A stretch of 64,000 nt of DNA from Tepidisphaeraceae bacterium (GCA_047600945.1 JASGKC010000001.1:5337209-5401208); one strand, 5' to 3'; shown: positions 7,861 to 61,872, numbered from the stretch's first letter. The notes: a model not told the origin generated them from the letters alone. Numbers and translations are program-made.

Positions 7861-7994
7861 TGAAGGTTCGGTGGTTGAGTGGTGAAGTGGTTCTGTGGGT
7901 GGCTCCCTTGTCGTACCACTGAACTACCGAACCACTCGACCACACAACTGCTCCCGATTGCATTTCCACTCATCTTCCGTACACATCAACCATC

Positions 7995-11231: not shown

Positions 11232-11689
11232 GGGCGGCACCTCCATGTGCACTGCGTGACAGTCGAATTCGACCGTCGTCAGAAGCCGGCTCGGACATCC
11301 GCCGGGCACAGGATCGGGAAAACCCGACCCCTCATCAGGGCCTCTGCGGCTCGTGTTTTACGAGGTTTGGTGAAAATGTAAAGCAGAAAGCATGCGGCCG
11401 AAGCGTCGAATGAAGTCCACTTTCCTTCTGAAAGAACACCGGTTCGCGGCTTCCGCTTCCACCTGCGGTTCGGCACCTCTTTGCTCAAGTCATTGTTCGA
11501 ACAGACTTACTGGCTTGGGTGGCCACGTCGGCACGTCTGCCAGCCTTGTGCTGAGATTTCTGTTGGGCGCAGGTCCGAGTGCGTCCCTGTGCCACCTTGC
11601 CCCTGATGATGGACAGATGGGACTGGAAGCCCACGGTTAATCCCGTCCGATGTCCCACGATTCCAGCCACCGCCCCCGTGGCCGGCTCA

Positions 11690-11905
11690 CTCCTCCCGGC
11701 CCAACTCCCGGCCCGGCCGACCTCTGCCGGCCGAACGGAGTGCTGACGTGTCATTTTTCATTCGGGGACATTTTGGGACATTTGGACCGCTCCACTTCGC
11801 CGTCCCATCGGACTCCTTTCAAATTGCCAAAGAGCAACGTCAACCCAGCAGTATGACAAGCGGGTCCGGTAGGCCGTCAAGAGAATTCCTTGTGGCGGTG
11901 GGCCA
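11690..11905 (+). other. Conserved intergenic element, copy 1 (paralog of 60280-60465)
   Basis: Shares blocks CGGCCGAACGGAGTGCTGACGTG (23/23), CGGGGACATTTTGGGACATT (20/20), TTGCCAAAGAGCA (13/13) and ATGACAAGYGGGTSCGG..GGCCGTCAAG with the second copy, in the same order and orientation. Confidence 0.4.
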
Positions 11906-12010
11906 GCTGCCGAATGAACTCGCCGCGCAGTGTGACATGAGCGCCCGGCCGTTGAATACTTGTGCCCCGACAACGGCTGCCGCCTTGACCCCCGCCGACT
12001 CCGACCGACG

Positions 12011-13111
12011 ATGCCGATCATGTCGCCCGATCTCCGCCTGCTGCTCGAACTTACCGCCGTCCCGACCGCACCGTTTCATGAACACCGCGTGATGGCGTTC
12101 ATCGACGCCTTTGCACGAGTCCGACGCTCGCTGTCCATCTCCCGGGATCGCTTCGGGAACACGCTGCTCGTCCGAAAAGGCTCGGCCGGCGAGAAACGCC
12201 CGCGGCTGGTCTATGTGGCTCACCTCGACCACCCCGGCTTCATCGTCGCGGAACAACTCGACACGAAGACCATCCGTTGCGACTTCCACGGCGGTGTGCT
12301 CGCGAAGCTGATGCTCGGCGCGAAGGTGCGATTCTTCGATGGAGCGAACGAAGTCACCGGCAAAGTGATCGATGCGAAAGACGACGCCGGTCGGGCTTCG
12401 TCGGCGACCGTGCGCGTGAGCAAGCCTGTGAAACCGGGCGCGTTCGGCATGTTCGACCTGACACCCGGCAAAATCGTCGGCCAGCGGTTCCACGCCCGCG
12501 TGTGCGACGACCTGGCCGGCGCGGCGTCGGCGCTGGCGACGCTAGACGCGCTAGCGAAGTCGCCCGCCAAATGCGACGTGGCCACCCTGCTCACGCGCGG
12601 CGAGGAACAAGGCTTCATCGGCGCGATCGCCAGCGTGAACGCGAGGCCGTCGCTGCTCCGCAAGACCGATCGGCTCATCAGCATCGAGTGCAGCGCCGAG
12701 CAACCCGTCGCGAAACAGGGCGAAGGCGTCGTCCTCCGCGTGGGCGACCGCACCAGCACGTTCAACAGCGCCTTCACCCGCTTCATCGGCGACGTCGGGA
12801 CCGACCTGGCGCAGAAGGACAAGCGGTTCAAATTCCAACGCGCCCTCATGCCCGGCGGCACCTGCGAGGCAACCGTCTTCGACGCCTGGGGCTACACGAC
12901 GGCGGCTGCGTGCGTGCCGTTGGGCAACTATCACAACATGAACAAGGTGCGCGGGCGCATCGAGGCGGAGAACGTGCACCTGGGCGACTGGCAGAACATG
13001 GTAAAGCTGTTCTTGGGATTGGCCCGACGCATCCACGAATTCGACGGCTCGCACGCGGCGCTGCGCGATCGGCTGACGAAACGGTTCAAGTCGTTCGAGC
13101 AGCTGCTGTGA
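12011..13111 (+). CDS. M42 family metallopeptidase (glutamyl aminopeptidase / FrvX-like)
   Basis: FHEHRVMAFIDAF and VYVAHLDHPGFIV motifs typical of the M42/M20 aminopeptidase fold; start chosen at ATG 12011. Confidence 0.65.
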   Translation: MPIMSPDLRLLLELTAVPTAPFHEHRVMAFIDAFARVRRSLSISRDRFGNTLLVRKGSAGEKRPRLVYVAHLDHPGFIVAEQLDTKTIRCDFHGGVLAKLMLGAKVRFFDGANEVTGKVIDAKDDAGRASSATVRVSKPVKPGAFGMFDLTPGKIVGQRFHARVCDDLAGAASALATLDALAKSPAKCDVATLLTRGEEQGFIGAIASVNARPSLLRKTDRLISIECSAEQPVAKQGEGVVLRVGDRTSTFNSAFTRFIGDVGTDLAQKDKRFKFQRALMPGGTCEATVFDAWGYTTAAACVPLGNYHNMNKVRGRIEAENVHLGDWQNMVKLFLGLARRIHEFDGSHAALRDRLTKRFKSFEQLL

Positions 13112-13146
13112 TGAATGCGTTGTCAGGGCGGCTCCGAAAACAAGCA

Positions 13147-13300
13147 CGGAGCACACAGAGAGCACAGAGGTCCCAGAGAAGGGCAACAAAAAGAAGATCG
13201 GAACAGTCGAGACGCCTTCGAGTATTTTGGCTTAACGCTATCGTCTTCCCTCTTCCGTCTATTCCTCTGTGCTCTCCGTGCTCTCGGTGTCCTCTGTGAT
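13147..13300. repeat. MITE-like inverted-repeat element, copy 2 (CACAGAG arms)
   Basis: CACGGAGCACACAGAGAGCACAGAGGTCCCAGAGAAGGG ... CCCTCTTCCGTCTATTCCTCTGTGCTCTCCGTGCTCTCGGTGTCCTCTGTG; between convergent gene ends. Confidence 0.45.
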
Positions 13301-13408
13301 CATCTTCGCATCACAGCACCAGCGACTTCGTCGCAGCGTGGCGACTCACCAGTGATGCGTCTGCTTCGTCTTCAATCGCAAATCGCAAATTGAAAATCGC
13401 AAATCCGC

Positions 13409-20509: not shown

Positions 20510-23419
20510 TTACTTCGTCTGAACGGCGCCGGCGCTCCAACTGCTCGCCGGGCGATAGTTGCCGTAGTAGTCAACGAACACGCCACCCACGGGCGTGGCG
20601 ATGTTGCTCGCCACTTCGCCGGCCAGCGGCGCCTTCAGCGACGTCAGCACGGTGTCGTCGAAGTAGTCGGTGCCGACGGGCGACAGCGCGTTCCACTCGC
20701 TGGGCGTGAGGTAGACCGACGAATCGTTCACACCCGGGGCACCGACGTAGTTGATGCCGCCCTGCGCCCAGGCCAGGATCGTCGGGTTCTCCCACACGTT
20801 GCTGTCGATCGCAGTGAAGCTCGAGAGGCTCGAGCTCATCACCTGAACCGGCGACGTCGCGTAAGAGCCCGTCACCAGTTTCGGCGCGACGTACAGGTTG
20901 TTCAGCAGCTTGATGCCGTCCACCGCACCTTGGACCAGCAGGAAGTGGCCCTGCGTGCCGTTGTTGAAGCCGGTGTTGTTGACGATCGTCAGGTCAGTGA
21001 CAACGCGGTTGTACTGCGAGTTGTAGGCCTCGACGACGATGTCGGCCTCGTTGTCCATGCTCAGCAGGTTGTTCCGAATGACGACCTTCTGAGCGCCGTG
21101 GGCAACCGTGACCTTGCCGCCGTCGACCTCGTTGTTTTCGAGGACGGCGAACAGCGTGCGGGCGTCGGGCTCGCCCAGGCCGGTCGGGCCGCCGAGCGGA
21201 CCGATGTTCACCGGGCCGTGCAGTTCGTTGCCTGAGACGTACGCGTACGTGCTGCGCTGCACGTTGAGCGCAGCCTTGGCGTCGTCCTTCGGATCGACGC
21301 TGCGCCGATCGAGGTTTGTGAGGTCGTTGCCCGTGAAGAGCAGCCGATCGGCGCCGAACACGCGAATGGTGTGTTCGCGCGTCACGTTCGCGACCTTGTT
21401 GCCCAGCACCACGATATTCGAGCCCTGGATCCACATGAAGTAATTGCGGATGCCAGTGATCAGCGGCGCGGTGCAGTCCTGCACGAGCACGCCGTTGGGC
21501 ATGCTGTTGAGGTTCAGGCCGTTCGCGAGGTTCAGGAAGGTGCAGTTGCGGACGGTGATGTTCTGACCGTACGGCGTGATGCCGTTGGGGATGTTGGTCG
21601 GGTCGCCGTCGGTGGCGTTGTAGATCGAATCGAGCGTGACGTTTTCGATGGTCGAGTTCGAGCTGCCCGGCGTGGTGAAGATGATCGAGCGGGCGCGGTC
21701 GCGCGGGCCCGAGTACCGCAGGACCGGGGCGTTGCCCGTGCCGTATGCGCCGATGTACGAGCCGTCGCCGGTGAGTTCGAGGTCGTCGGTGCCGGTGTCG
21801 AAGGTGTCGCCGCGACGGAAGTAAATCGCGACATCGCCGCCCAGCGCGAGGACGGCCGCGCGGGAGAAGGTGCGAATGGGCCGATCGACCGTGCCGGCGG
21901 CGGTGTCGTCGCCGTTGGAGGCGACGTAGATCGCCCGGCGTGTCGCCGCGCGGACGTTCACCGTCTGCGTCACGGTGTTGTACTTGCCCGCTTCATTGAA
22001 GACGCGGAGCGTGATCGTGTACGTGCCGGGAGCCGAGTAGACGTGGGCGGCGTTGTAGCCGACCAGCTTGTTGAAGCGGGAATTCGTTTCGCCGAAATCC
22101 CACTCGTAGCGGGCCGTCGTGGCGTTGCCGGCGTTGAGCGTGCTGGAGAGGCCGTCGACATGAATGGCGACGCCGTTTTCGACCGTGAATCCCGTCAGGC
22201 TGCTGATGCGTGCGACCGGCGCCGACGCGTTGCCGATCACCGGGGGCAAACTTGCACCCGTGGTCGTCCCGCCGGTCGAACCGCCTGTCGACCCACCCGT
22301 GGACCCGCCGGTGCTGCCACCAGTCGAGCCTCCGGTCGAACCGCCCGTGCTGCCTCCGGTCGAGCCGCCGGTGGTTCCGCCGGTCGTCCAGTTGCGGATC
22401 GACTCGACGCTGTAGTTGGTTTCGACGTTCATCGAAACGTCGCTGCCGCCGTTCGCGGCCACCCAGTCGTTGCCCGCGCCGCCGTCGATGGAGTCGGCGC
22501 CGTTGCCGGTGACGATGGCGTCGTTGCCGTCGCCGGCGTAGACGATCACGCTGCTGTTGCCGGCGACGTTGATGCCGTCATTGCCCGCGCCGGCCGTGAC
22601 GCTGACCGGCAGGCCGACCCGTGCCGAAACGCTGAAGTAGTCGTTCCCGCTGCCGCCGCGCAGGTCGATCGACGATACCGACGCCTTCGGGAAACTGGCC
22701 ACGCTGTTCGAGAAGCGCACGAGCACCTTCGACGCAGAACTGTCGAGGTCGACCAGGATGCTGCCCGGCGCGCTGGCCGGCGTGCTGAGGCGGAGGATGC
22801 CCGACGACGTCAATTCGGCGATGTCGCCCGTCGAGGCGGCGAGATTTGAAGAGACGATTCGTTCGACCATCTCGAAGCTGTCGGCGTTCATCGCGACGTC
22901 GGCGCCGCCGTTGCCAATGACCGTGTCGGCACCGGCCCCGCCGTCGAGCGAGTCGTTGCCCGCGCCGCCTTCAATGCGGTCGTTGCCAAGGCCGCCCGAC
23001 GCGAGAATCGGGAAAGCAATGGCTTGGTTGACGACGATGGTGTCGTTGCGGGCGCCGCCGGTGATCTTGGCGACTGTGATCGTGCTGCTGGGATAGGTGT
23101 ACGCCTGCCCGTTCACGCGGACCACGGCGATCAAGCCGAGCGGTGCGACAGTGATGGTGTTGGCGGAGTAAAGATCGCCCTGGATGGTGAGCACGCCGCC
23201 GGCGACGGCGCTGGAGGCGAGCAACTGGCGATGTTCGAGAGAGTCGAGGACAGGCTGGGCAGCCCGGCCGAGCAGGGCCGAGGCGGGATGCGGAGTTTCG
23301 ACGACAGCGTTGCCGACGAGTGAAGGGACAAAAGGCACAAGCCCAAGACGGGCGGCCGGAGTTGCGGTGGTGCCGGTGGGCCGGCGTCGGCGCGAAGTCG
23401 TTCGAAGGGGCATCTTCAT
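20510..23419 (-). CDS. Large secreted right-handed beta-helix protein with PKD-like domain and hemolysin-type Ca-binding (GGxGxD) repeats
   Basis: RTX-like nonapeptides (GGAGNDSLDGGAGADTVIGNGGADV; GDGNDAIVTGNGADSIDGGAGNDWVAANGGSDV), pectate-lyase-like NxxxG repeats, (GGST)n linker, N-terminal signal/anchor region. Confidence 0.7.
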   Translation of the reverse strand: MKMPLRTTSRRRRPTGTTATPAARLGLVPFVPSLVGNAVVETPHPASALLGRAAQPVLDSLEHRQLLASSAVAGGVLTIQGDLYSANTITVAPLGLIAVVRVNGQAYTYPSSTITVAKITGGARNDTIVVNQAIAFPILASGGLGNDRIEGGAGNDSLDGGAGADTVIGNGGADVAMNADSFEMVERIVSSNLAASTGDIAELTSSGILRLSTPASAPGSILVDLDSSASKVLVRFSNSVASFPKASVSSIDLRGGSGNDYFSVSARVGLPVSVTAGAGNDGINVAGNSSVIVYAGDGNDAIVTGNGADSIDGGAGNDWVAANGGSDVSMNVETNYSVESIRNWTTGGTTGGSTGGSTGGSTGGSTGGSTGGSTGGSTGGSTGGTTTGASLPPVIGNASAPVARISSLTGFTVENGVAIHVDGLSSTLNAGNATTARYEWDFGETNSRFNKLVGYNAAHVYSAPGTYTITLRVFNEAGKYNTVTQTVNVRAATRRAIYVASNGDDTAAGTVDRPIRTFSRAAVLALGGDVAIYFRRGDTFDTGTDDLELTGDGSYIGAYGTGNAPVLRYSGPRDRARSIIFTTPGSSNSTIENVTLDSIYNATDGDPTNIPNGITPYGQNITVRNCTFLNLANGLNLNSMPNGVLVQDCTAPLITGIRNYFMWIQGSNIVVLGNKVANVTREHTIRVFGADRLLFTGNDLTNLDRRSVDPKDDAKAALNVQRSTYAYVSGNELHGPVNIGPLGGPTGLGEPDARTLFAVLENNEVDGGKVTVAHGAQKVVIRNNLLSMDNEADIVVEAYNSQYNRVVTDLTIVNNTGFNNGTQGHFLLVQGAVDGIKLLNNLYVAPKLVTGSYATSPVQVMSSSLSSFTAIDSNVWENPTILAWAQGGINYVGAPGVNDSSVYLTPSEWNALSPVGTDYFDDTVLTSLKAPLAGEVASNIATPVGGVFVDYYGNYRPASSWSAGAVQTK
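22255..22395. repeat. In-frame 12-bp tandem repeat encoding (GGST)n inside the 969-aa gene
   Basis: ~11 consecutive units of GGTSGASCCRCC-like 12-mers on the coding strand; translates to GGSTGGSTGGST... Confidence 0.6.
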
Positions 23420-24266
23420 CCCTTGGCTAGGGGACCAGCGGGCGGCCTGTTACGAGCCACCGCGCATTACAAAACCGTTCCTTTCTCGCCTGATACACCG
23501 GCGACGCACCGGGTTTTCGAAGGTTGCTCCTTCGTTGTGCAGAGGCCTACCCTCTGCTGCATCAGGTTTTCACTGAAGACAGTTGAGCGTGTGGTTATGG
23601 GACTTGCCGCGGAAATTGCAATCAAGAACTTCCCGGAAAATCACTTTTCCCGTCATCCCTAAGTTGCCGCTAAAAATAGCGTTAGGTGATGAGTCAGGGC
23701 GGCATAAAACCGCACCGCGACCGGATCGCCTTCGGATCCTGCGCGACGCAACACTTCGCTGCTGCCGTCGTTACGAGAAGCTGACTTTCTGTCCGCTTTC
23801 GCATTCCGCCGTCGTCAACCGATTCCGATGGATCGGAACGGCCTCGGGCGAACAACTTTCGTATCGGCCCCGAAGGACCGCACCTGCAAAGCTGGCGAAG
23901 ATATTCCGGTGAATCCGAACAAAGCGCAAGCACCGGCAATCCCGGCACTCGGCGTCGGCTCGGCATTCGCCCGGCGCACTCACTCCCGTGACGGCGCTGC
24001 GCGACCGTGCGCACACCTGAAACAAGTTTTTTTGTCGGACCTTGAGAACCCGATGCCCAAGCACGAAGTCCGAATGTCGAAATGCTTCAGCGATCTGCGG
24101 CATTCGACCTGCGCCCTTCGAACTTGACTCCCACCCTCCCCGCGCCGTTGACGCCCAACCCGCTCACGCTTATTCTTCCCCGCTCGACTTTCCGAGACAC
24201 CCCTCTCGGACTAGTCGGAAACAAATGTGAAAACCGTGAAGGCCACCCCTTCGCGGTGCATCGGTC

Positions 24267-26994: not shown

Positions 26995-27235
26995 GAACCA
27001 CAAAGATCACGGAGCGCACAGAGTGCACAGAGAAGTCGACCCGGAATTTTTTTGAGTTCGGATTGAGCACCGAGTGCAGCCGGGTGCCACGGCATCGGTA
27101 CTCCGTTGCTGTGGGACGCTTGGTAGAGCAGAGCGTCCTGTTTTCCGCAAGCGTACCACGGCTAGCGAGTACGCAAGCCGTGGCACCCGAGCCTCCCTTC
27201 TTTCCTCTGTGTTCTCTGTGGCTCTGCGGTGACGA
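26995..27235. repeat. MITE-like inverted-repeat element, copy 3, with nested palindromic GGGTGCCACGG element (27100-27200)
   Basis: Outer arms GATCACGGAGCGCACAGAGTGCACAGAGAAG / CTTCTTTCCTCTGTGTTCTCTGTGGCTCTGCGGTG; inner element with termini GGTGCCACGG...CCGTGGCACCC. Confidence 0.45.
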
Positions 27236-30439: not shown

Positions 30440-30570
30440 CAACGAATCTGGGTGCCACGGCTTGCGTACTCGCTAGCCGTGGAACGCTTGGCTACGCCAT
30501 CCGGCACTCATCTCTTGCTCGCACACCACAGCAACGGCGTACCGATGCCGTGGCACCCAGACTTGTTGCT
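30440..30570. repeat. Palindromic GGGTGCCACGG element, copy B (inverse orientation relative to 27100-27200)
   Basis: GGTGCCACGGCTTGCGTACTCGCTAGCCGTGG...GTACCGATGCCGTGGCACCC; each half is the reverse complement of the opposite half of the 27100-27200 copy. Confidence 0.45.
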
Positions 30571-37954: not shown

Positions 37955-38023
37955 GGCCGAAGTGCAAAGTCCAAATGCCGAAGTTGCTTCGCTCACTTCG
38001 GCATTCGGACTTCGCACTTCGGC
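37955..38023. terminator. Long near-perfect inverted repeat (29-nt arms, 27/29 complementary) downstream of murQ
   Basis: GCCGAAGTGCAAAGTCCAAATGCCGAAGT - loop TGCTTCGCTC - ACTTCGGCATTCGGACTTCGCACTTCGGC. Confidence 0.45.
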
Positions 38024-54199: not shown

Positions 54200-54300
54200 T
54201 CGCTTGATTTCGAATTGCGACATGCGAATTTCGAATTGAGTTCGCAGACGCATCGCTCGTTCCTCAATTCGCAATTCGAAATCCGCAATTCGCAATGCCC
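54190..54300. repeat. AT-rich tandem/inverted repeat island (TTCGAATT / AATTCGCAAT units); probable terminator
   Basis: CGAATTTCGAATTGAG...CTCAATTCGCAATTCGAAATCCGCAATTCGCAAT; related AATCGCAAAT units at 13355-13400. Confidence 0.4.
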
Positions 54301-54801: not shown

Positions 54802-54967
54802 TTCGACGTGACTCGGCGCGTTCGGCATAATCGCGTGACATGCCCGGGGAACGTCCAGTGTCGCCGCTCGTGCTGGCCGAGTTGTATGACTCCGCCGATG
54901 CGTCGTTCCTGACGCGACTCCTCACGCCTCGACTCGATTTGCGTCCGATGGTCGGCCTGATCGAGCG

Positions 54968-56523
54968 ATGGAAGAAAGACAACAGCGCCTGGCGCGCCAG
55001 CTCAAGCTGTCGTACGCAACACGACCGCCTGCCGCGCAGCGCGAGCCGCTGATCTTCAAGCGGCTCTTCAAGCACGCCGACGCCACCGGCGATCACGAGT
55101 TGATGGCCGCGTTCCTTGTCGCGACGGATCGGCTGATCCGCCGCAAGCGTCGTAAACGCGTCCGCTGGGCGCAGGGAACGCTCGAAACGAGCGAAGTCCT
55201 CCGCGTCGCTTCGAACTACAACGGCCTGTTCCGATCGAACGCGACGAATCACTATGTCCGCCGTCGCGCGTGGCGGCACTTCCGTCGGCTGGGCTTTCGC
55301 GACCCGGCCACCTATCGCACGCACGTCGCCGCGGCTCTGGCACGCTACGACGATGCCGACGTCCGCGCCGGCGAGAACCTGCTCGACTGCTGGGGCCTGA
55401 TGCACGCCTGCTTCGGCAAGAGCAAGGAGATCGCCTTCGACGCCCGGCACACGAACATCGCGCCCAGTGGCGTCTTCGCGAACCTGTCGGCCGCACCGAT
55501 GTTCGAGCGGCACTGGGCCGACGCGGCCGGGCTGCCTGTACTGCTCGACCTGCTCCTGGCCGCACGATGCAGGCCCGTGCGCGTGTGGGCCATCCAACTG
55601 CTGAAGCGTCTGCACAAGCCGGCGCTGTGCGCGTCGATGCGACCCTGATCGTGAAACTGATCGACCACGAAGACGCCGATGTCGCTGCGTTCGCGGCCGA
55701 GTTGTTGGCGGACGCCGATGCGGTGTCGTCGTTCCCGATCCCGACGTGGCTCGCCCTGCTCGCCACCCGCAACCCGGCCGTCACGGCGACGGTCGCTGAC
55801 GCCTTCCGCAAGCACGTCGATTTCGCCCGCGTGACCGCGACGCAGGCCATCGAACTGGCGCTGCGTGCACCGGTGCCGGTCGCGGCGCTCGGGCTCGACA
55901 TCCTGTTGACGCGCGAGTTTCGCACACCGGCCGATCGTGCGTTGCTTGCGCGGTTGAGCGCAGCCGAGTGTGCCGCACTCGCCGATGCCATCGCCCGCTT
56001 CGCCCTGCCCAAGCTGAACCGTCCGGGCGGATACGACATCGACGACCTCACAGGCTTCTTCGACAGCCGATTCCGGACGATGCGCAGCGGCGCCTTCGCT
56101 GCACTCACCCCACAATCGCCGGCCGACACCGATCCGGCCTTCTGGTCTCGGCTTTTCGAATCGCCTTACGACGACGTGCGCACTGAGCTCGTCGCGCGGT
56201 TGAAGACGCGATCGAACTTGCCAGGCGCGTCGAGCGATTCACTCGCGTCGCTCTGGACCAACGTGCTGCTGAGCATCCACCGAGGTGGCCGGGCGAAGCT
56301 GTCGGCGCTACGCCAGATCAGCGATCACATCCGCGCGAACCCGTCGACCACACGCATCCTTCTGCCGGTGCTGGCGATCGCGATCCGCTCGGTGCGCGCC
56401 CCCGAAGCCCGGCACGGCCTGGCCGCGATCGTGGCCGCGACGCAGCGCGAGCCGTCGCTGCTGACCCGCGTGGCCGAGGCGTTTCCCGACCTGCAACTCG
56501 ACGCCACCGTGGGGGTGCCATGA
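54968..56523 (+). CDS. Hypothetical alpha-helical (HEAT-like repeat) protein; frame interrupted by an apparent -1 shift near 55620-55650
   Basis: Two consecutive sense-looking frames (54968-55648 and 55650-56523); downstream half has HEAT-like helical repeats; stop overlaps next start (ATGA at 56520). Confidence 0.45.
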
Positions 56524-58226
56524 TCGAGACGTTCGTTTATGCCGGATCGAGCGGCGTGGTCGATCGCCCCGAGGGCCGATCGATCCGGCTGGCGCCAAAC
56601 CTCGTGCGCGAGCCGGTCGCGTTCGACGCGGAGTTGCGCCATCCGCTTCGTTTTCGCGAAGCGATTAGCGCGTTGCACGACGTTGTGGTGAGCGATCTCC
56701 GCTTCAAGAAGAAGGACAAGACGGCATACAAGGCGTGGCTGAAGGAGCAGGCGAATCGTGACGCCGCCGTCCGACGCGACGCCTGGCGGGCGGCCAACGA
56801 ACAACTGCAAGCCGCCCACGCAACGCCGTTGCCGCCGGAGTTCGAGGCCGACTACACCGCCGCCCGCAAGCTGTACTGGTCGGCCCGCGACCAGTACAGC
56901 GATTACCTCCGCAAGCACGACCCCGCGCTCTGGCGCACGCTGATGCCGAGCGACCCAGTCATTACCGTCGCGAATGACGTCGTGTTCTTCGAGTGCTTCT
57001 CGAAGGACGAATCCGCCTACGGCTGCCTCTACACGCGCCGCGCCGACGCGTTCGGCCCCAGCAGCACGTTGCAGGTCGGCACCACGAACGTCGACTATTC
57101 CGAAGCGCTGTACGAGCAGTTCCAGACGCTGCGGACGTATCGCCCGACGAAGTTCAGCCTCGACCCGGAAGGTTTTTCGGTTCAGCGTGCAGCGCAGGAA
57201 ACGCCGGCGCATCGCGAAGAAAAGATCGACTTGCCCAACACGTGGCTGAGCGGCTTCATGAAGCTGCAAGCCGCCATGACGATGCCGACGACGCGCGTGC
57301 CGCTGTCGCGCGAGTGCGTCTATTCGCTGCTGGCGTTTTTGAAGCGGAATATCGCCAAGCGCAGCCCGCGGGCGCTTCGGTTCGAACTCGATCCGGGCAA
57401 GCCGGCCCGACTGGTGCTGGAGCCGTGGGAGAAGGCATTCCAAGTCGTCGGCCCCGCGTACGCCGGCCCGCGCACGCCGGCGATTCGCGTGTGGGGCACG
57501 CGCCGGCTGCTCGTGCTGGCGCGGCTGCTGCCGCTGGCGGAATCGATCGAAGTGCACTTGCTCGCGACGGGCCTGCCCAGCTTCTGGGTGGTTCGCATGG
57601 GTGAGATGACGTTCGTGCTGGGCCTGTCGGGCTGGACGACGAACGACTGGTCGCGTGGCTCGGCGCTCGACCTGCTTGAACCGCCCCGCGCGATCAGCCG
57701 GGAACTCGTCGGGGCGACCGTGCGGTCGCTGAAGACACGTCGCTCGGCCACGCTCGCCGAGGTACAGGCCGACATGGGCGAGGGCGATCCGTTCCTCGTC
57801 GGCCAGGCGCTGCGTCACCTGGCCGAGATGGGACAGGTCGTGTTCGACCTGACGACCGGCGTCTATCGCTACCGGCAGATTCTCACCGTGCCCGAGGCCG
57901 AGACGCTGCTGGCGCACGAGAGCGAGGAAGTCGCCGCGGCGCGGAAGCTGGTCGCGGAGCGGCGGTTTGAGCTGGTCGATCGCCAGGACGGGCCGAGCCT
58001 GTCGCGGGTAATCATCGGAAAGGTCGAAAGCACGCCGGTGGAGATCCTGGTCGATCCGGACGACCGCATCCGGCGCGGCAAGTGCCTGTGCAGTTATTTC
58101 AAGCAGTACGGTTTGAGGAACGGCCCGTGTCGTCACATGATCGCCCTGCGTTGGGGCCTGAGCGTGACGGGCTTGGCGGCATTGCAGCAAAGCGAAGCGT
58201 TCAATCGAATGCTGGGTCGAAGTTGA
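56520..58226 (+). CDS. SWIM zinc-finger domain protein
   Basis: C-terminal CxC...CxH SWIM motif RGKCLCSYFKQYGLRNGPCRHMIALRWGL; 568 aa. Confidence 0.7.
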   Translation: MIETFVYAGSSGVVDRPEGRSIRLAPNLVREPVAFDAELRHPLRFREAISALHDVVVSDLRFKKKDKTAYKAWLKEQANRDAAVRRDAWRAANEQLQAAHATPLPPEFEADYTAARKLYWSARDQYSDYLRKHDPALWRTLMPSDPVITVANDVVFFECFSKDESAYGCLYTRRADAFGPSSTLQVGTTNVDYSEALYEQFQTLRTYRPTKFSLDPEGFSVQRAAQETPAHREEKIDLPNTWLSGFMKLQAAMTMPTTRVPLSRECVYSLLAFLKRNIAKRSPRALRFELDPGKPARLVLEPWEKAFQVVGPAYAGPRTPAIRVWGTRRLLVLARLLPLAESIEVHLLATGLPSFWVVRMGEMTFVLGLSGWTTNDWSRGSALDLLEPPRAISRELVGATVRSLKTRRSATLAEVQADMGEGDPFLVGQALRHLAEMGQVVFDLTTGVYRYRQILTVPEAETLLAHESEEVAAARKLVAERRFELVDRQDGPSLSRVIIGKVESTPVEILVDPDDRIRRGKCLCSYFKQYGLRNGPCRHMIALRWGLSVTGLAALQQSEAFNRMLGRS

Positions 58227-58234
58227 GAAGGAAA

Positions 58235-58535
58235 GGAGCCTCGAATCCGCCGACGGTCGGCATGCTGAAGCGGGGTGGTGCGAGCGTAAGCCCGCACGCG
58301 TCCTGAGACTCTCTCCGCGATGTTCCGTCGCGGGTGCAGCTTGCCTCCCCATTGCGTCCCCAAGGCCGTTGTTCGTTCGGGCACCGTGCGAGCTATCGCA
58401 GGTGCCCATGAACAACCCAAGGGTTGCCCCTGCGATAGCTCGCACGGTGCCCATGGTGAACGACCTTGGTCCGAAGGTTGAAGTCAGGATGGCCGCGTGG
58501 ATGCGGGCCGATCCGTCGGTGGATTCGATGTTCCT
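58235..58535 (+). ncRNA. Candidate retron-type non-coding RNA (msr/msd-like): a1/a2 inverted repeats flanking a long hairpin
   Basis: a1 AGGAGCCTCGAATCCGCCGACGG (58235-58257) vs a2 CCGTCGGTGGATTCGATGTTCCT (58513-58535): 20/23 complementary, 2 of 3 mismatches G-U compatible; internal perfect 24-bp stem GGGCACCGTGCGAGCTATCGCAGG (58379-58402) / CCTGCGATAGCTCGCACGGTGCCC (58429-58452). Confidence 0.45.
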
Positions 58536-58544
58536 TTAAGGCCC

Positions 58545-60226
58545 GTGCCGAACGATGACTTCAACAACCTCGTCGCCCTGGTGTCGGCCGTGTTCGGGGT
58601 CGGCGCCGTCATTCTCATTGCAACCGCGTTCCGCAAGCGCCAGCAGCCGCCGAAGCCGCAGCACCCCATCGGAGGCGATCAGTCGGGGCGTCAACTCCGG
58701 TCGATAGCGCCGCCCGCGGGTCGACCCGTCGTCGTCGTTCCGCCGCGCCGGCCAATCCAGCGCATCGAGAAGACGCTCGACCTCACCGCCGCGCAGTTCG
58801 CGCCACTAACCGACGCGCAGGTCCGCGAGCGGGCGAGCACCACGCCGTTCACCGGCTTTTTCACGTTCGGCCGGCGCGATCGCATTCCGTCGCCGGCCGA
58901 CCCGCGCACGAAGCTGATCGACCAGGCAATGGTCGGCCACGGCCTCGTGACGGCCGACGAACTCGTCCGCATCCACGAGATCGGCCAGAAGTACGACGAA
59001 CTCCGGCCCGACTACTCGACCGTACATGCAGTCGCGCAGCAAGCCGTTGAAGCAGATCGCGAGGCCCGCGCGAGATCTGCGCCGAGAAGAAGCTCGCCGC
59101 CGAGCAGCGCAAGCGCGAGCATGCCGAGCGCGTCGCCCGGAATCGCGCAACCGACATCATCCACCTCGGTCGAGGCGTGTCGGCCGGCCTTGCCGACCGC
59201 ACGAGCGACTTCGATAAGCTGCGTGCCGCCGGCCTGCCCGAACTGTCGACGCCCGCCGACCTCGCCGCCGCGTTCGGCCTCCCGATCCCGCGTCTGCGCT
59301 TCCTCGCCTACCACGCCGAGGCCAGCACCGTCAGCCACTACGTGCAGTTCATGGTGCCTAAGAAAAGCGGCGGCGAGCGCCTGCTCAGCGCGCCGCACAA
59401 GCACTTGGCCACGGCGCAGCAGTGGGTGCTTGATGCAATCCTCCGCAAGCTGCCCGTCCACGACGCCGCGCACGGCTTTGTCAACGGTCGATCGATCCTC
59501 ACGAACGCCAAGCCGCACGTCGGCCGCGCGGTCGTCGTCAACTGCGACCTCACCGACTTCTTCCCGTCGATCACCGTGCATCGCGTGATCGGCTTCTTCC
59601 GCCACCTCGGCTACTCGCCGGCCGTCGCGACGGTCTTGGCGCTGCTCGTCACCGAGTGCCCGCGCCGCAAAGCGCGCTTCGCGGGCAAGACCTGGCACAT
59701 CGCGGTCGGCCCGCGCGGGCTGCCGCAAGGCGCGTGCACCAGCCCGGCACTGTCGAACCTGATCGCACGCCGGCTCGACTCGCGCCTCAGCGGCATCACG
59801 CGCAAGCTCGGCTGGACCTACACGCGCTACGCCGACGACCTGACGTTCTCCTGCAACACAGCCACGCCCTCGGTCGGCTACCTGCTGGCGCGCGTCCGGC
59901 ACATCACCGGCGACGAAGGCTTTGCGATCAATGAGAAGAAGACGCGTGTCCTCAAGCGATCGGCGCGACAGGCGGTCACGGGCATCGTCGTGAACGTCGA
60001 GCCGAGCGTGCCGCGGAAGACGCGGCGCCGGCTCCGGGCGATCCTGCATCACGCGAAACACGAAGGCCTTGCCACCCAGCAGCGACCGGGTCGTGCGAAC
60101 ATCACCGGCTGGGCGAACGGCATGACCGGCTTCATCGCGATGGTGAATCCACGGCACGCGCTACCGTTACGCATGGCGCTCGATGCGGTGAAGTCGGATG
60201 ACCGATCCGACGGCCATGTCCCATAG
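58545..60226 (+). CDS. Retron-type reverse transcriptase with ~175-aa N-terminal extension containing a TM helix; frame interrupted by an apparent -1 shift near 59050-59085
   Basis: RT motifs: FMVPKKSGGERLL (motif 1), NCDLTDFFPSIT (2), LPQGACTSPALSNL (4), YTRYADDLTF (YxDD, 5), QAVTGIVVN (VTG region typical of retron RTs). The upstream frame encodes NLVALVSAVFGVGAVILIATAF TM plus a ~150-aa unknown domain that joins the RT frame as ...EADREARA|REICAEKKLAAEQRK... Confidence 0.7.
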
Positions 60227-60279
60227 CCCCGGCGGAATGCACGTCGAATCGGCCAACAGGGATCGGCCGAATTCCCGGC

Positions 60280-60465
60280 CGGGCCGCGAGTTGTCGGCCG
60301 AACGGAGTGCTGACGTGCGATTTTGAAATCGGGGACATTTTGGGACATTCGGGCCACCCCATTCGGCCGGGGCCGGAGGACGCGCATTCAGGTTGCCAAA
60401 GAGCAGACTGCGACCTCGCATCATGACAAGTGGGTGCGGGTGGCCGTCAAGGAAAATCCGTGGTG
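60280..60465 (+). other. Conserved intergenic element, copy 2 (paralog of 11690-11905), immediately downstream of the RT gene
   Basis: Same ordered blocks as copy 1 (CGGCCGAACGGAGTGCTGACGTG; CGGGGACATTTTGGGACATT; TTGCCAAAGAGCA; ATGACAAGTGGGTGCGGGTGGCCGTCAAGG). Confidence 0.4.
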
Positions 60466-60813
60466 TGAGCATCTGCTCGAGGACTTCCGTAAGTCTGTGG
60501 CATGGGCGTCTCGCCCATGGACTCGCGCAGCGAGCACGCGGCGTGAGCCGCGTTCAGCAGAAGGAGAGCATCAAGGTGCTCGCGATTGCCGGTCGCTGGA
60601 TGGTTGTCTTTTGTTGAATCGAGCTGCGCTCGATGCCGGCTGCGCCGGTCCACGGGCGGGGACGCCCGTGCCACGACACACGTGTGGGGCCCCCGTTGGA
60701 TCGATGTGCAACCCAAACAAGATCAGGCGAGTCCCGTACCCAGGGGACTCGCCTGATGAGAAACCTTCCTCCGCATCGTTCGACGTGAACGAATAGGCTG
60801 TGGGGAACGAAGA

Positions 60814-61503
60814 TTACTTGCGGGCCATCTTGCGGCGGGCGCGGTAGGCGACCACCAGGGCGGCCGGGGCGGCGAACACGGCCGCGGGCAGCGGGACGAC
60901 CGCCGTTTCCACGCCGACGTTCGCGACCTTCGCGTCGATCAGGGCCGTCGATTCCGTGCTGTCGGTGTACGCGCTGACCAGCCCGTCGACTTCGACCTTC
61001 ACATTCTTCCAACCGGCCGGCAGGTTGATCGCGGTGCCGCCGTCCCACTTGCCTTCGAGCGAGCTGTGGGTCGCGGCCGGCAGGCCGTTGTAGGTGAAGT
61101 TCGAGCTGAGGACCTGCATCGTGTCGAGGTTCGTGACACGCAGCTGACCCGAGCTGTCGACCTCACCGCGGCCGAGGATGCTGTAGTCGCCCAGCAGGCT
61201 CGACGTGATGCTCTTGATCACGTGGTTCGGCTTGGCGTTGAGGATGACCGAGAGCGTATCGCCGACCTGCTGGCTGAGCGTCTGGCCCTGCGGGGCGACG
61301 GCGCTGAAGTTCGAGGGGAACAGCGCGAAGCCGTTCGGCAGGCCGATGCCGTCGCTGAACTTGCCAGTCTGGCTCTGGCCTTGCTGATAGTCGAACGTCG
61401 GCTGCGAGCCGCTGGGCGAGGCCCAGTCGACCGGGGCGGCAAAGGCCGAGGTCGAAGCACCGATCACGGCGACGGCGGCAAGAAGCGTGCTGCGGAAACT
61501 CAT
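60814..61503 (-). CDS. PEP-CTERM sorting domain protein
   Basis: Signal peptide MSFRSTLLAAVAVIGASTSAFA; C-terminal VPLPAAVFAAPAALVVAYRARRK PEP-CTERM-like anchor; N-terminus resembles the PEP-CTERM protein at 52137-52958. Confidence 0.65.
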   Translation of the reverse strand: MSFRSTLLAAVAVIGASTSAFAAPVDWASPSGSQPTFDYQQGQSQTGKFSDGIGLPNGFALFPSNFSAVAPQGQTLSQQVGDTLSVILNAKPNHVIKSITSSLLGDYSILGRGEVDSSGQLRVTNLDTMQVLSSNFTYNGLPAATHSSLEGKWDGGTAINLPAGWKNVKVEVDGLVSAYTDSTESTALIDAKVANVGVETAVVPLPAAVFAAPAALVVAYRARRKMARK

Positions 61504-61872
61504 TGCGGTTTCTCCGAAAATCCTGCGAGACAGTGGGTACTGGCCTTCGAACGATTCGGACCCGTGTCCGGTCGTCATTGGCGTGGAGTAACCATGCCAC
61601 GCACTGATGCCCCGTGACGGCGGTTCAAGCTGATTTCAGGCGGGAAACGCGCGACTTCACACGTCCGAATTGCCGTGCGCGCCGGCGCGCAGCGCGTGCG
61701 GTTTATGCAGGGGGCGATAACCAAGTGCGTGGCAAACTGGCGCAACCGATTCGACGGCGCCGTCCATGTCGCGCGATCGGGTCCGCCCTGATGGGTCAAG
61801 CGATCGGACGTGCGAAGAATCCGGCGCGCCGCCAGTCGATCGACCACCACCCTGCTCGAACCCATCCTCCCC

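What the first reader, a model, noticed from the sequence alone, without database searches (positions are those of the whole stretch)
11690..11905. Conserved ~190-bp intergenic element present in two copies (here and 60280-60465) with GGGACATT direct repeats at 10-bp phase
Seen: two same-orientation copies share four perfectly or near-perfectly conserved blocks in the same order: CGGCCGAACGGAGTGCTGACGTG (23/23), CGGGGACATTTTGGGACATT (20/20), TTGCCAAAGAGCA (13/13) and ATGACAAGYGGGTSCGGKRGGCCGTCAAG. These are separated by variable spacers of similar length. The second block is a direct repeat GGGACATT-TT-GGGACATT with 10-bp periodicity, the geometry typical of winged-helix response-regulator (OmpR/PhoB-type) binding sites. 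Copy 1 sits in a 780-bp divergent intergenic region upstream of the M42 peptidase. Copy 2 is directly downstream of the retron-like RT. Inference: block conservation with spacer divergence suggests either a shared cis-regulatory module (regulator binding site plus promoter, with conserved start ATGACAAG... of a leader) or a small structured RNA family.
Basis: seen in the sequence. Interest (0 to 1): 0.6.

Follow-up and report, generated by a model that had tools for sequence, protein, structure and literature searches.

The report
Two-copy intergenic GGGACAT-box repeat element
Two diverged copies of a ~240-bp non-coding element carrying phased GGGACAT boxes are really there; they belong to a family of box-bearing intergenic modules typical of Tepidisphaeraceae (Planctomycetota), are not part of the neighbouring retron, and most likely act as protein-binding regulatory DNA, though their function is unproven.

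Summary
The window holds two same-orientation copies, at 11649-11885 and 60215-60455. They are 69% identical overall but share perfect blocks of 23, 21, 13, 10 and 8 nt, which column shuffles rarely reproduce (p about 1e-4). A third, inverted box (ATGTCCCA) lies about 116 nt upstream of the direct GGGACATT pair in both copies.

The source is a Tepidisphaeraceae MAG. Copy 2 abuts a type XIII retron RT but is not part of the retron. The retron's own msr-msd ncRNA lies upstream of the RT, and three RT loci with 72-73% identical RTs lack the element. The copies are not att sites, DGR repeats, small genes or any Rfam family.

The exact 17-mer GGGACATTTTGGGACAT is concentrated in Planctomycetota, especially Tepidisphaeraceae, usually as one inverted box plus 2-4 direct boxes at 10-bp phase. 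The neighbouring genes are functionally unrelated. One related MAG carries at least 10 copies of a ~330-bp element that shares both ends with the window element. Its far end scans as a reverse-strand sigma-70-like promoter, and 10 of 11 copies face a gene on that strand.

Best reading (confidence about 0.4): a dispersed promoter/operator-type cassette bound by an unidentified protein. OmpR/PhoB assignment and a structured-RNA reading are untested or weak. Interest is moderate to low.

The parts
11649..11885 (+). Copy 1 of the element, written in the orientation in which the boxes read GGGACAT. It lies in the divergent gap between the SH3-domain gene (minus strand) and the M42 peptidase gene (plus strand).
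   Evidence: Alignment of the two copies; profile search.
60215..60455 (+). Copy 2 of the element. It overlaps the last codons and the stop of the retron RT ORF and lies in a convergent gap.
11649..11656 (-). Inverted box ATGTCCCA of copy 1 (reverse complement of TGGGACAT).
   Evidence: It closes the predicted 133-nt hairpin domain.
60215..60222 (-). Inverted box ATGTCCCA of copy 2. It contains the last codons of the RT ORF, just before the TAG stop.
11728..11750 (+). Block C, CGGCCGAACGGAGTGCTGACGTG, 23/23 identical. GAACGGAGTG also precedes the box array in a related MAG locus (L008).
60295..60317 (+). Block C of copy 2.
11762..11782 (+). Block D: two direct GGGACATT boxes at 10-bp phase, preceded by an A/T-rich stretch.
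60329..60349 (+). Block D of copy 2. It is preceded by GATTTTGAAAT, the same flank as in Tepidisphaeraceae arrays.
11824..11836 (+). Block E, TTGCCAAAGAGCA, 13/13 identical. Role unknown.
60393..60405 (+). Block E of copy 2.
11853..11890 (-). Block F read on the minus strand: GAATTCTC-TTGACG (11880-11875), 16-nt spacer, TGTCAT (11858-11853). Candidate leftward sigma-70-like promoter.
   Evidence: Conservation pattern. It aligns with the TTGACT-16-TAACAT site of the related element. The scan tool did not call it in the window because its -10 hexamer lacks A at position 2.
60423..60460 (-). Block F of copy 2 on the minus strand: ATTTTCC-TTGACG (60450-60445), 16-nt spacer, TGTCAT (60428-60423).
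   Evidence: not called by the scan tool.

Best explanation
The two copies are members of a lineage-specific family of non-coding intergenic modules of Tepidisphaeraceae.

**Core.** The core is a set of GGGACAT(T) boxes: two direct boxes one helical turn apart and one inverted box about 116 bp upstream. I infer that these boxes are recognition sites for an unidentified sequence-specific, probably oligomeric, DNA-binding protein.

**Far end.** Block F most likely carries a weak sigma-70-type promoter on the minus strand (TTGACG-N16-TGTCAT). Transcription would then run leftwards across blocks E, D and C, with the boxes acting as an operator or leader downstream of the promoter. Copy 1 could in this way influence the SH3-domain gene on the left, or act from a distance on the M42 gene on the right. 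Copy 2 has no gene to serve. It is either an orphan duplicate or gives antisense transcription into the frameshifted retron RT.

**Shown:** the copies; the non-random block conservation; the absence of coding potential; independence from the retron; the recurrence of the box architecture in the family; shared ends with a multi-copy element that faces genes.

**Inferred:** protein binding, promoter activity and the direction of action.
For: - **Constraint on blocks.** Blocks are perfect against a 69% background.
- **Non-coding.** No reading frame is conserved between the copies.
- **Taxonomic concentration.** By my count, 50 of the first 80 listed genome loci holding the exact 17-mer GGGACATTTTGGGACAT are Planctomycetota, 31 of them Tepidisphaer-named. 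One MAG contributes at least 13 loci.
- **Recurrent architecture.** One inverted AATGTCCCA, a spacer of 13-110 nt, then 2-4 direct boxes at 9-10 bp, with unrelated flanks.
- **Shared ends.** The ~330-bp element of MAG CTOTU41298 (at least 10 copies) shares the 5' flank GATTTTGAAAT plus boxes. It also shares the 3' end: GAATTCTCTTGAC matches copy 1 and ATTTTCCTTGAC matches copy 2.
- **Promoter-like end.** That end scans as a minus-strand promoter, TTGACT-16-TAACAT.
- **Gene-facing orientation.** 10 of 11 of those copies have a high-GC3 gene starting 52-554 nt beyond the boxes on that strand, against 3 of 11 on the other side.
Against: - Only two copies of the full element could be found. The source genome outside the window could not be searched.
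- Copy 2 lies in a convergent gap. Copy 1's boxes are about 520 nt from the SH3 start and 238 nt from the M42 start, farther than in the related families.
- The window's -10 candidate TGTCAT lacks the key A at position 2, and the scan tool did not call it.
- In the related element TTGACA-like words also occur in arrays, so they could be binding words rather than a -35 hexamer.
- Distances between the inverted and direct boxes (23 to 116 bp) are not helically phased across loci. This fits a hairpin as well as it fits DNA looping.
- No candidate binding protein was identified.
- Orientation relative to the nearest gene differs between box families.
Confidence: 0.4

Rival explanations
1. Selfish or relic small dispersed repeat (MITE-like, comparable to the BOX, Correia or ERIC classes). 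Its conserved blocks would reflect the needs of mobilisation or recent gene conversion, with no host function. Copy 2 would simply be an insertion at the 3' end of the RT gene.
For: - A related MAG holds at least 10 dispersed copies of an element that shares both ends.
- Copy 2 sits where no annotated gene can be served, and it supplies the last roughly 8 codons and the stop of the RT ORF, which are absent from homologues.
- Genes next to arrays are functionally heterogeneous.
- The source genome is rich in other short word arrays and palindromes in intergenic DNA.
Against: - No terminal inverted repeats span the whole element, and no target-site duplication is visible.
- No transposase or integrase is encoded in the window.
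- 69% identity with perfect blocks argues for long-term constraint rather than recent spread.
- The related element is strongly oriented towards genes.
Confidence: 0.22
2. A structured non-coding RNA or RNA leader. The inverted box pairs with one of the direct boxes and closes a roughly 133-nt hairpin domain. The tandem boxes would offer alternative pairing registers.
For: - Both copies fold with the box-box stem closing the domain.
- The 141-nt domains are more stable than shuffles on both strands, with z from -2.5 to -3.2 and 1-3 of 200 shuffles folding as well.
- The diverged left arm pairs with different parts of the invariant right arm in the two copies.
- The variable, unphased distance between the inverted and direct boxes in relatives suits a hairpin.
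- The profile matches its own reverse complement with E = 4.6e-4.
Against: - No Rfam family matches, even at E up to 10.
- The full 291-nt stretches have z of only -1.7 and -1.8.
- Inner helices are not conserved in register, and two sequences give no covariation test.
- No terminator-like end follows on either strand.
- Dyad symmetry is equally expected for DNA-binding sites.
Confidence: 0.17
3. One reading: an OmpR/PhoB-type response regulator binds the direct repeat and activates a plus-strand promoter for the M42 peptidase gene or for a leader starting at ATGACAAG.
For: - Two 7-8-bp direct repeats sit 10 bp centre to centre with an A/T spacer. This geometry is used by winged-helix response regulators (general knowledge).
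- A plus-strand promoter-like site, GTGACA-17-AATACT, lies at 11932-11960, ahead of the M42 ATG.
Against: - The boxes lie about 150-190 bp upstream of that promoter-like site, and copy 2 has no counterpart promoter or gene.
- No Trans_reg_C regulator is encoded by any window ORF scanned.
- Genes facing arrays in relatives show no two-component enrichment and no common theme.
- M42 orthologues in relatives carry other word arrays (GGGCATT, CTTCATC) or none, not GGGACAT.
- The same geometry fits MraZ/AbrB-type and other oligomeric binders (PMC12957436).
Confidence: 0.08
4. A component of the retron (a second ncRNA or regulatory site), or the att or origin site of a mobile island bounded by the two copies.
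For: - Copy 2 directly follows the type XIII retron RT.
- In viral contigs, GGGACA arrays lie next to primase-helicase genes in two independent contig groups and next to an integrase gene in another contig.
Against: - The retron's own ncRNA is upstream of the RT. Its a1 and a2 arms are at 58232-58256 and 58513-58537, and the msd hairpin is at 58379-58452. It is conserved in a homologous locus.
- Three RT loci with 72-73% identical RTs have 10-125-bp unrelated DNA after the RT and no boxes.
- Copy 1 has no retron.
- The 48 kb between the copies is ordinary housekeeping DNA (citrate synthase, RNase D and others) without integrase or replication genes.
- Mismatches between the copies are of all types, not adenine-specific, so this is not a DGR template/variable-region pair.
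Confidence: 0.03

Closest known systems
Small dispersed intergenic repeats with modular blocks and regulatory side effects (pneumococcal BOX elements, Neisseria Correia elements, enterobacterial ERIC/IRU). Comparison from general knowledge.
   Same: Non-coding and 100-350 bp long. Confined to intergenic DNA and lineage-restricted. Built of conserved blocks with variable spacers. Prone to hairpin formation. Can carry promoter-like hexamers. Multi-copy in a related genome.
   Different: No whole-element terminal inverted repeats or target duplications are seen. The defining feature here is a phased array of 7-8-bp boxes plus one inverted box. Copy number in the source genome is unknown; two copies lie in 64 kb.
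Operator arrays of phased direct repeats for oligomeric regulators: MraZ boxes (GTG(G/T) plus 6-nt spacer, 3-4 boxes, 10-bp period; PMC12957436, bioRxiv 10.1101/2022.02.09.479790) and OmpR/PhoB-type direct repeats.
   Same: Direct repeats exactly one helical turn apart with an A/T-rich spacer, 2-4 units, near promoters in relatives. The first box in many relatives reads GTGGGA.
   Different: MraZ triple repeats are reported only upstream of mraZ in B. subtilis (same preprint). Here the boxes are found at many loci, with no mraZ-like ORF nearby. The window boxes read CGGGGA and TTGGGA, not GTGG. An extra inverted box is part of the unit.
Iterons and arm-type sites of mobile elements (P4- or SaPI-type origins next to primase-helicase genes; integrase arm sites). 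Comparison from general knowledge.
   Same: Short words repeated in direct and inverted orientation at roughly 10-bp spacing. GGGACA arrays occur next to primase-helicase and integrase genes in viral contigs.
   Different: No replication or integration gene lies near either window copy. Control words give up to 24 viral hits against 28 for GGGACAT, so the viral arrays may be unrelated instances of a generic design.

Membership tests
Retron msr-msd ncRNA (type XIII) | Lies next to the RT on the same strand, normally upstream, flanked by inverted repeats a1/a2 and containing a long msd hairpin. | tested here: not met
   The a1/a2 arms (25 nt, 88% complementary) and a 27-bp msd hairpin lie at 58232-58537, upstream of the RT. 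The element lies downstream and has no such arms.
Retron msr-msd ncRNA (type XIII) | Conserved together with the RT in homologous retron loci. | tested here: not met
   Loci L110-L112 (RT 72-73% identical) lack the element and any GGGACAT pair. The upstream ncRNA region is conserved.
OmpR/PhoB-type response-regulator site | Two or more direct repeats of a 6-8-bp half-site, 10-11 bp centre to centre. | tested here: met
   GGGACATT-TT-GGGACATT, period 10, in both copies.
OmpR/PhoB-type response-regulator site | Positioned at or just upstream of the -35 region of a regulated promoter. | tested here: inconclusive
   The nearest plus-strand promoter-like site is about 150 bp downstream in copy 1 and absent in copy 2. 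The candidate minus-strand promoter is upstream of the boxes.
OmpR/PhoB-type response-regulator site | A cognate winged-helix (Trans_reg_C) regulator and a coherent regulon. | tested here: not met
   No Trans_reg_C domain was found in any window ORF scanned. The 41 array-facing genes in relatives are heterogeneous. The rest of the genome could not be searched.
MraZ box array | Three or four GTG(G/T) boxes with 6-nt spacers upstream of mraZ and the dcw cluster. | tested here: not met
   Period and repeat number are similar, but the window boxes lack GTG. No MraZ-like ORF was found in the window or in any fetched locus by a DxxxR-motif scan. Consensus taken from PMC12957436.
MITE / small dispersed repeat | Many dispersed copies in one genome. 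| not testable with these tools
   Two copies lie in 64 kb. A related MAG has at least 10 copies of a related element.
MITE / small dispersed repeat | Terminal inverted repeats and target-site duplication. | tested here: not met
   Only the internal 8-bp box pair is inverted. The ends of homology are not inverted copies of each other, and no flanking duplication is seen.
Known structured RNA family (Rfam) | Match to a covariance model. | tested here: not met
   No match at the gathering score. With E up to 10 there are only chance-level hits.
DGR template/variable repeat pair | Differences between the copies restricted to adenines of one copy; one copy inside a target gene's 3' end. | tested here: not met
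   The 74 differing columns are of all types (11 with A in copy 1, 15 with A in copy 2). The RT is retron type XIII.

The most novel reading that the evidence does not exclude
The GGGACAT-box modules are portable promoter-operator cassettes specific to Tepidisphaeraceae. They are read by a still unknown abundant DNA-binding protein that recognises phased boxes plus an inverted box. Their spread rewires expression of unrelated genes. In this window one copy has landed at the 3' end of a decaying type XIII retron and drives antisense transcription into its RT.
Probability: 0.12. Interest if true: 0.55.

Novelty: new member of a known kind. Interest (0 to 1): 0.3.

Why it matters
If the boxes are bound by a dedicated protein, this would give a first handle on cis-regulatory logic in Tepidisphaeraceae, an uncultured-rich planctomycete family with almost no promoter or regulator data. 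It would also be an example of regulatory cassettes that spread between unrelated genes. On the practical side, it warns annotators that the conserved DNA after this retron RT is not retron ncRNA. As it stands it is an uncharacterised lineage-specific intergenic repeat. That is useful for annotation but does not bear on a long-standing question.

Tried and rejected
1. **Retron ncRNA.** Rejected: the true a1/a2/msd lies upstream, and homologous loci lack the element.
2. **DGR template/variable pair.** Rejected on the mismatch spectrum.
3. **attL/attR of an island.** Rejected: the 48 kb between the copies holds housekeeping genes and no integrase.
4. **Small protein gene.** No frame is open or conserved in both copies. 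A six-frame synthetic query against 5.8 billion proteins found nothing.
5. **Rfam.** No match.
6. **More copies of the full element.**
   - The metagenome scan with GGAGTGCTGACGTG-N(8-20)-GGGGACAT gave one chance hit inside a cupin gene.
   - blastn and nhmmer against all fetched loci matched only the box region.
   - The source contig could not be fetched.
7. **Conserved neighbouring protein.** All-against-all clustering of ORFs around 110 arrays gave only spurious ORFs across the repeat DNA.
8. **Orthologous-context test.** The nearest M42 orthologues are only about 65% identical and synteny is not kept. Their upstream regions carry other words (GGGCATT, CTTCATC) or none.
9. **MraZ idea.** The geometry is similar, but there is no GTG core and no mraZ nearby.
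10. **Sigma-54, sigma-32, ECF, CIRCE and DnaA-box readings.** Checked by eye against recalled consensus sequences; none fits. This is inspection only.
11. **Cross-phylum significance of the GGGACAT word.** Control words of the same composition gave 1, 6 and 24 viral hits against 28. The viral arrays are therefore not evidence of a universal factor.
12. **Literature.** One search was wasted on a bad 'anywhere' term. No paper mentioning this motif in a relevant sense was found.

Full report
**1. What is in the sequence**

In register they run from an inverted box ATGTCCCA (11649-11656; 60215-60222) to GGCCGTCAAG (11872-11881; 60442-60451). That is about 240 bp, longer than the 190 bp reported.

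Over 236 aligned columns identity is only 69%, yet the matches are concentrated in runs of 23, 21, 13, 10, 8, 8 and 8 nt. In 20,000 column shuffles, the two longest runs are reached in 0.015% and the four longest in 0.005%. The blocks are therefore constrained; this is not uniform decay after a duplication.

The 18-mer GGGACATTTTGGGACATT is expected 0.02 times in the window and occurs twice. A profile built from the two copies finds no third copy in the 64 kb.

**2. Context**

The exact proteins of the window belong to an NCBI MAG labelled Tepidisphaeraceae bacterium, on a 5.53-Mb contig.

- **Copy 1** lies between an SH3-domain secreted-protein gene on the minus strand and the M42 peptidase gene (ATG at 12020). 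The SH3 gene's listed ORF starts at GTG 11309; an in-frame ATG at 11246 followed by a signal-peptide-like stretch looks the more likely start, by inspection. Downstream of M42 come yidD and a GH20 gene.
- **Copy 2** starts within the last codons of a reverse-transcriptase ORF. It is followed, after about 270 bp of other non-coding DNA, by a minus-strand terminator-like hairpin and a convergent gene.

The 48 kb between the copies encodes ordinary chromosomal functions. Examples are isocitrate/isopropylmalate dehydrogenase, RNase D, citrate synthase, CrcB, a Ser/Thr kinase and hybrid histidine kinases. There is no integrase, transposase or winged-helix response regulator.

**3. Not part of the retron**

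The RT scores 1.6e-147 against the PADLOC type XIII retron RT profile. A SWIM-finger protein is encoded just upstream, as described for type XIII retrons (PMC7736814).

The retron's own ncRNA is plainly visible upstream of the RT. It has 25-nt a1/a2 inverted repeats at 58232-58256 and 58513-58537, enclosing a 27-bp hairpin at 58379-58452. The same region is conserved in a homologous locus.

In three loci whose RTs are 72-73% identical, the RT is followed by 10-125 bp of unrelated DNA and there is no GGGACAT pair. The window RT carries about 8 extra C-terminal residues that homologues lack, and these are encoded by the start of the element. Copy 2 is thus an addition at the 3' end of the RT gene, not a retron component.

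**4. Other readings excluded**

- No reading frame is open and conserved in both copies.
- Differences between the copies are of all base types, so they are not a DGR repeat pair.
- No Rfam family matches, even at E = 10.

**5. Relatives**

By my count, 50 of the 80 listed with titles are Planctomycetota, and 31 are Tepidisphaerales or Tepidisphaeraceae, with several loci per MAG.

None of these loci carries blocks C, E and F together. The full element therefore seems restricted to the source lineage. Its nearest relatives in the databases are distant: the best M42 orthologue is about 65% identical.

What is shared is an architecture: one inverted AATGTCCCA, a spacer of 13-110 nt, then 2-4 direct GGGACATT boxes at 9-10-bp spacing. 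The boxes are often preceded by GTGA(A/T)(A/T)(A/T)TGAAATGT, and the flanks are otherwise unrelated. Copy 2 has the same GATTTTGAAAT flank, and locus L008 also shares GAACGGAGTG.

Genes facing such arrays in 41 loci have no common function. They include glycogen synthase, fumarase, DprA, a ROK kinase, thymidylate kinase, T6SS VipA and two ECF sigma factors. This argues against a dedicated regulon.

**6. A multi-copy cousin**

In MAG CTOTU41298 the boxes form the start of a ~330-bp element present in at least 10 loci at 72-87% identity.

Its other end matches the end of the window element closely. On the reverse strand, GAATTCTCTTGAC is shared with copy 1 and ATTTTCCTTGAC with copy 2. There the scan tool calls a reverse-strand promoter-like site, TTGACT-16-TAACAT.

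In 10 of 11 loci a high-GC3 gene starts 52-554 nt beyond the boxes on that strand, several with a Shine-Dalgarno sequence. Only 3 of 11 have a gene on the other side.

By homology, block F of the window element reads TTGACG-N16-TGTCAT on the minus strand. This is an inference. The window site is weaker, because its -10 hexamer lacks A at position 2, and the scan tool did not call it.

**7. DNA site or RNA hairpin?**

The stretch from the inverted box to the direct boxes folds into a closed domain in both copies. It is moderately more stable than shuffles on either strand, with z from -2.5 to -3.2. The longer 291-nt stretches are not notable, at z -1.7 and -1.8.

The diverged left arm pairs with different parts of the invariant right arm in the two copies. 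The spacing between inverted and direct boxes in relatives is not helically phased. These points keep an RNA or hairpin reading alive, but two sequences allow no covariation test. On the other side, the strict 10-bp phasing of the direct boxes, their A/T spacers and their position near gene starts in relatives are what one expects of protein-binding DNA.

**8. Comparison with known systems**

- **Direct-repeat geometry.** It matches OmpR/PhoB-type sites and MraZ boxes (GTG(G/T) plus 6-nt spacer, three or four boxes). The MraZ core sequence and the mraZ context are absent, and no winged-helix regulator is nearby.
- **Viral arrays.** GGGACA arrays occur in viral contigs next to primase-helicase and integrase genes, like iterons or arm sites. 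Control words of equal composition give up to 24 hits against 28, so this is a generic design rather than shared ancestry.
- **Overall kind.** The closest known kind is the small, modular, lineage-specific intergenic repeat with regulatory side effects (BOX, Correia, ERIC). The element differs from these in having no whole-element terminal repeats and in its phased boxes.

**9. Verdict**

Best explanation, confidence about 0.4: a Tepidisphaeraceae box-bearing promoter/operator-type cassette, probably acting on the minus strand, with copy 2 an orphan or antisense copy. Rivals are a selfish or relic repeat (0.22), a structured RNA (0.17), the specific OmpR/M42 model (0.08), and a retron, att or origin role (0.03).

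Novelty: a new member of a known kind. Interest about 0.3.

Noticed in passing
window 54840-60226: A complete type XIII retron locus with the same gene order as its homologues: HEAT/ARM-like gene, SWIM-finger gene (56520-58226), msr-msd ncRNA (a1 58232-58256, msd hairpin 58379-58452, a2 58513-58537) and RT. The HEAT-like gene is split over three frames (breaks near 54992 and 55628). The RT is frameshifted near 59063-59069, so its N-terminal ~190 residues lie in another frame. Homologues are 520-580 aa against a 349-aa ORF here. This is either a decaying retron or long-read indel errors clustered in one locus.
   Followed up: partly
window 13143-13405; 54207-54296; 7865-7898; 37995-38022: Intergenic DNA of this genome is full of short tandem word arrays with 7-9-bp units, often as inverted sets. 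Examples are GCACAGAG words facing CTCTGTGC words, AATCGCA x4.6, and TTCGAATTGCGA facing TCGCAATTCGAA. Relatives show the same habit with other words (GGGCATT, CTTCATC) upstream of M42 orthologues (L113, L115).
   Followed up: partly
window 27082-27188 and 30450-30558: REP-like palindromic repeats, GGGTGCCACGGC...GCCGTGGCACCC, in at least four copies in two intergenic regions. A related GTGGCACGGGC hairpin lies at 60639-60670, next to copy 2.
   Followed up: no
loci L015, L018, L046, L104, L010 (genome-contig hits): Next to GGGACAT arrays the same loci carry parallel triple arrays with other words of the form GNNNCAT(T) (GTCGCAT, GTTGCAT, GCGACA, GGCGACA), each preceded by a similar A/T-rich flank. 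This looks like a family of sites with diversified specificity.
   Followed up: no
loci L033, L061, L071, L075 (Deinococcales MAGs): GGGACATTTTGGGACAT plus a third TTGGGACA lies between a NarL-type sensor kinase gene and genes for a 691-aa secreted protein or a 1054-aa AAA/BTAD-like regulator. This looks like a lineage-specific two-component regulon site.
   Followed up: no
window 22251-22394 (inside the 980-aa RTX/PKD protein gene, 20510-23449, minus strand): A 12-nt periodic coding repeat (about 10 units) and 27-nt repeats, consistent with the gene's Pfam hit to RTX calcium-binding nonapeptide repeats.
   Followed up: no
window 60814-61578 (minus strand): The 254-aa protein convergent on copy 2 has no Pfam hit. 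Its C-terminus, VPLPAAVFAAPAALVVAYRARRKMARK, resembles a PEP-CTERM-type sorting signal (by eye).
   Followed up: no
locus L021 3500-3850: An IS1595-like transposase gene with lower GC content, identified by eye from its N-terminal zinc-ribbon motif, sits directly after one copy of the related CTOTU41298 element.
   Followed up: no
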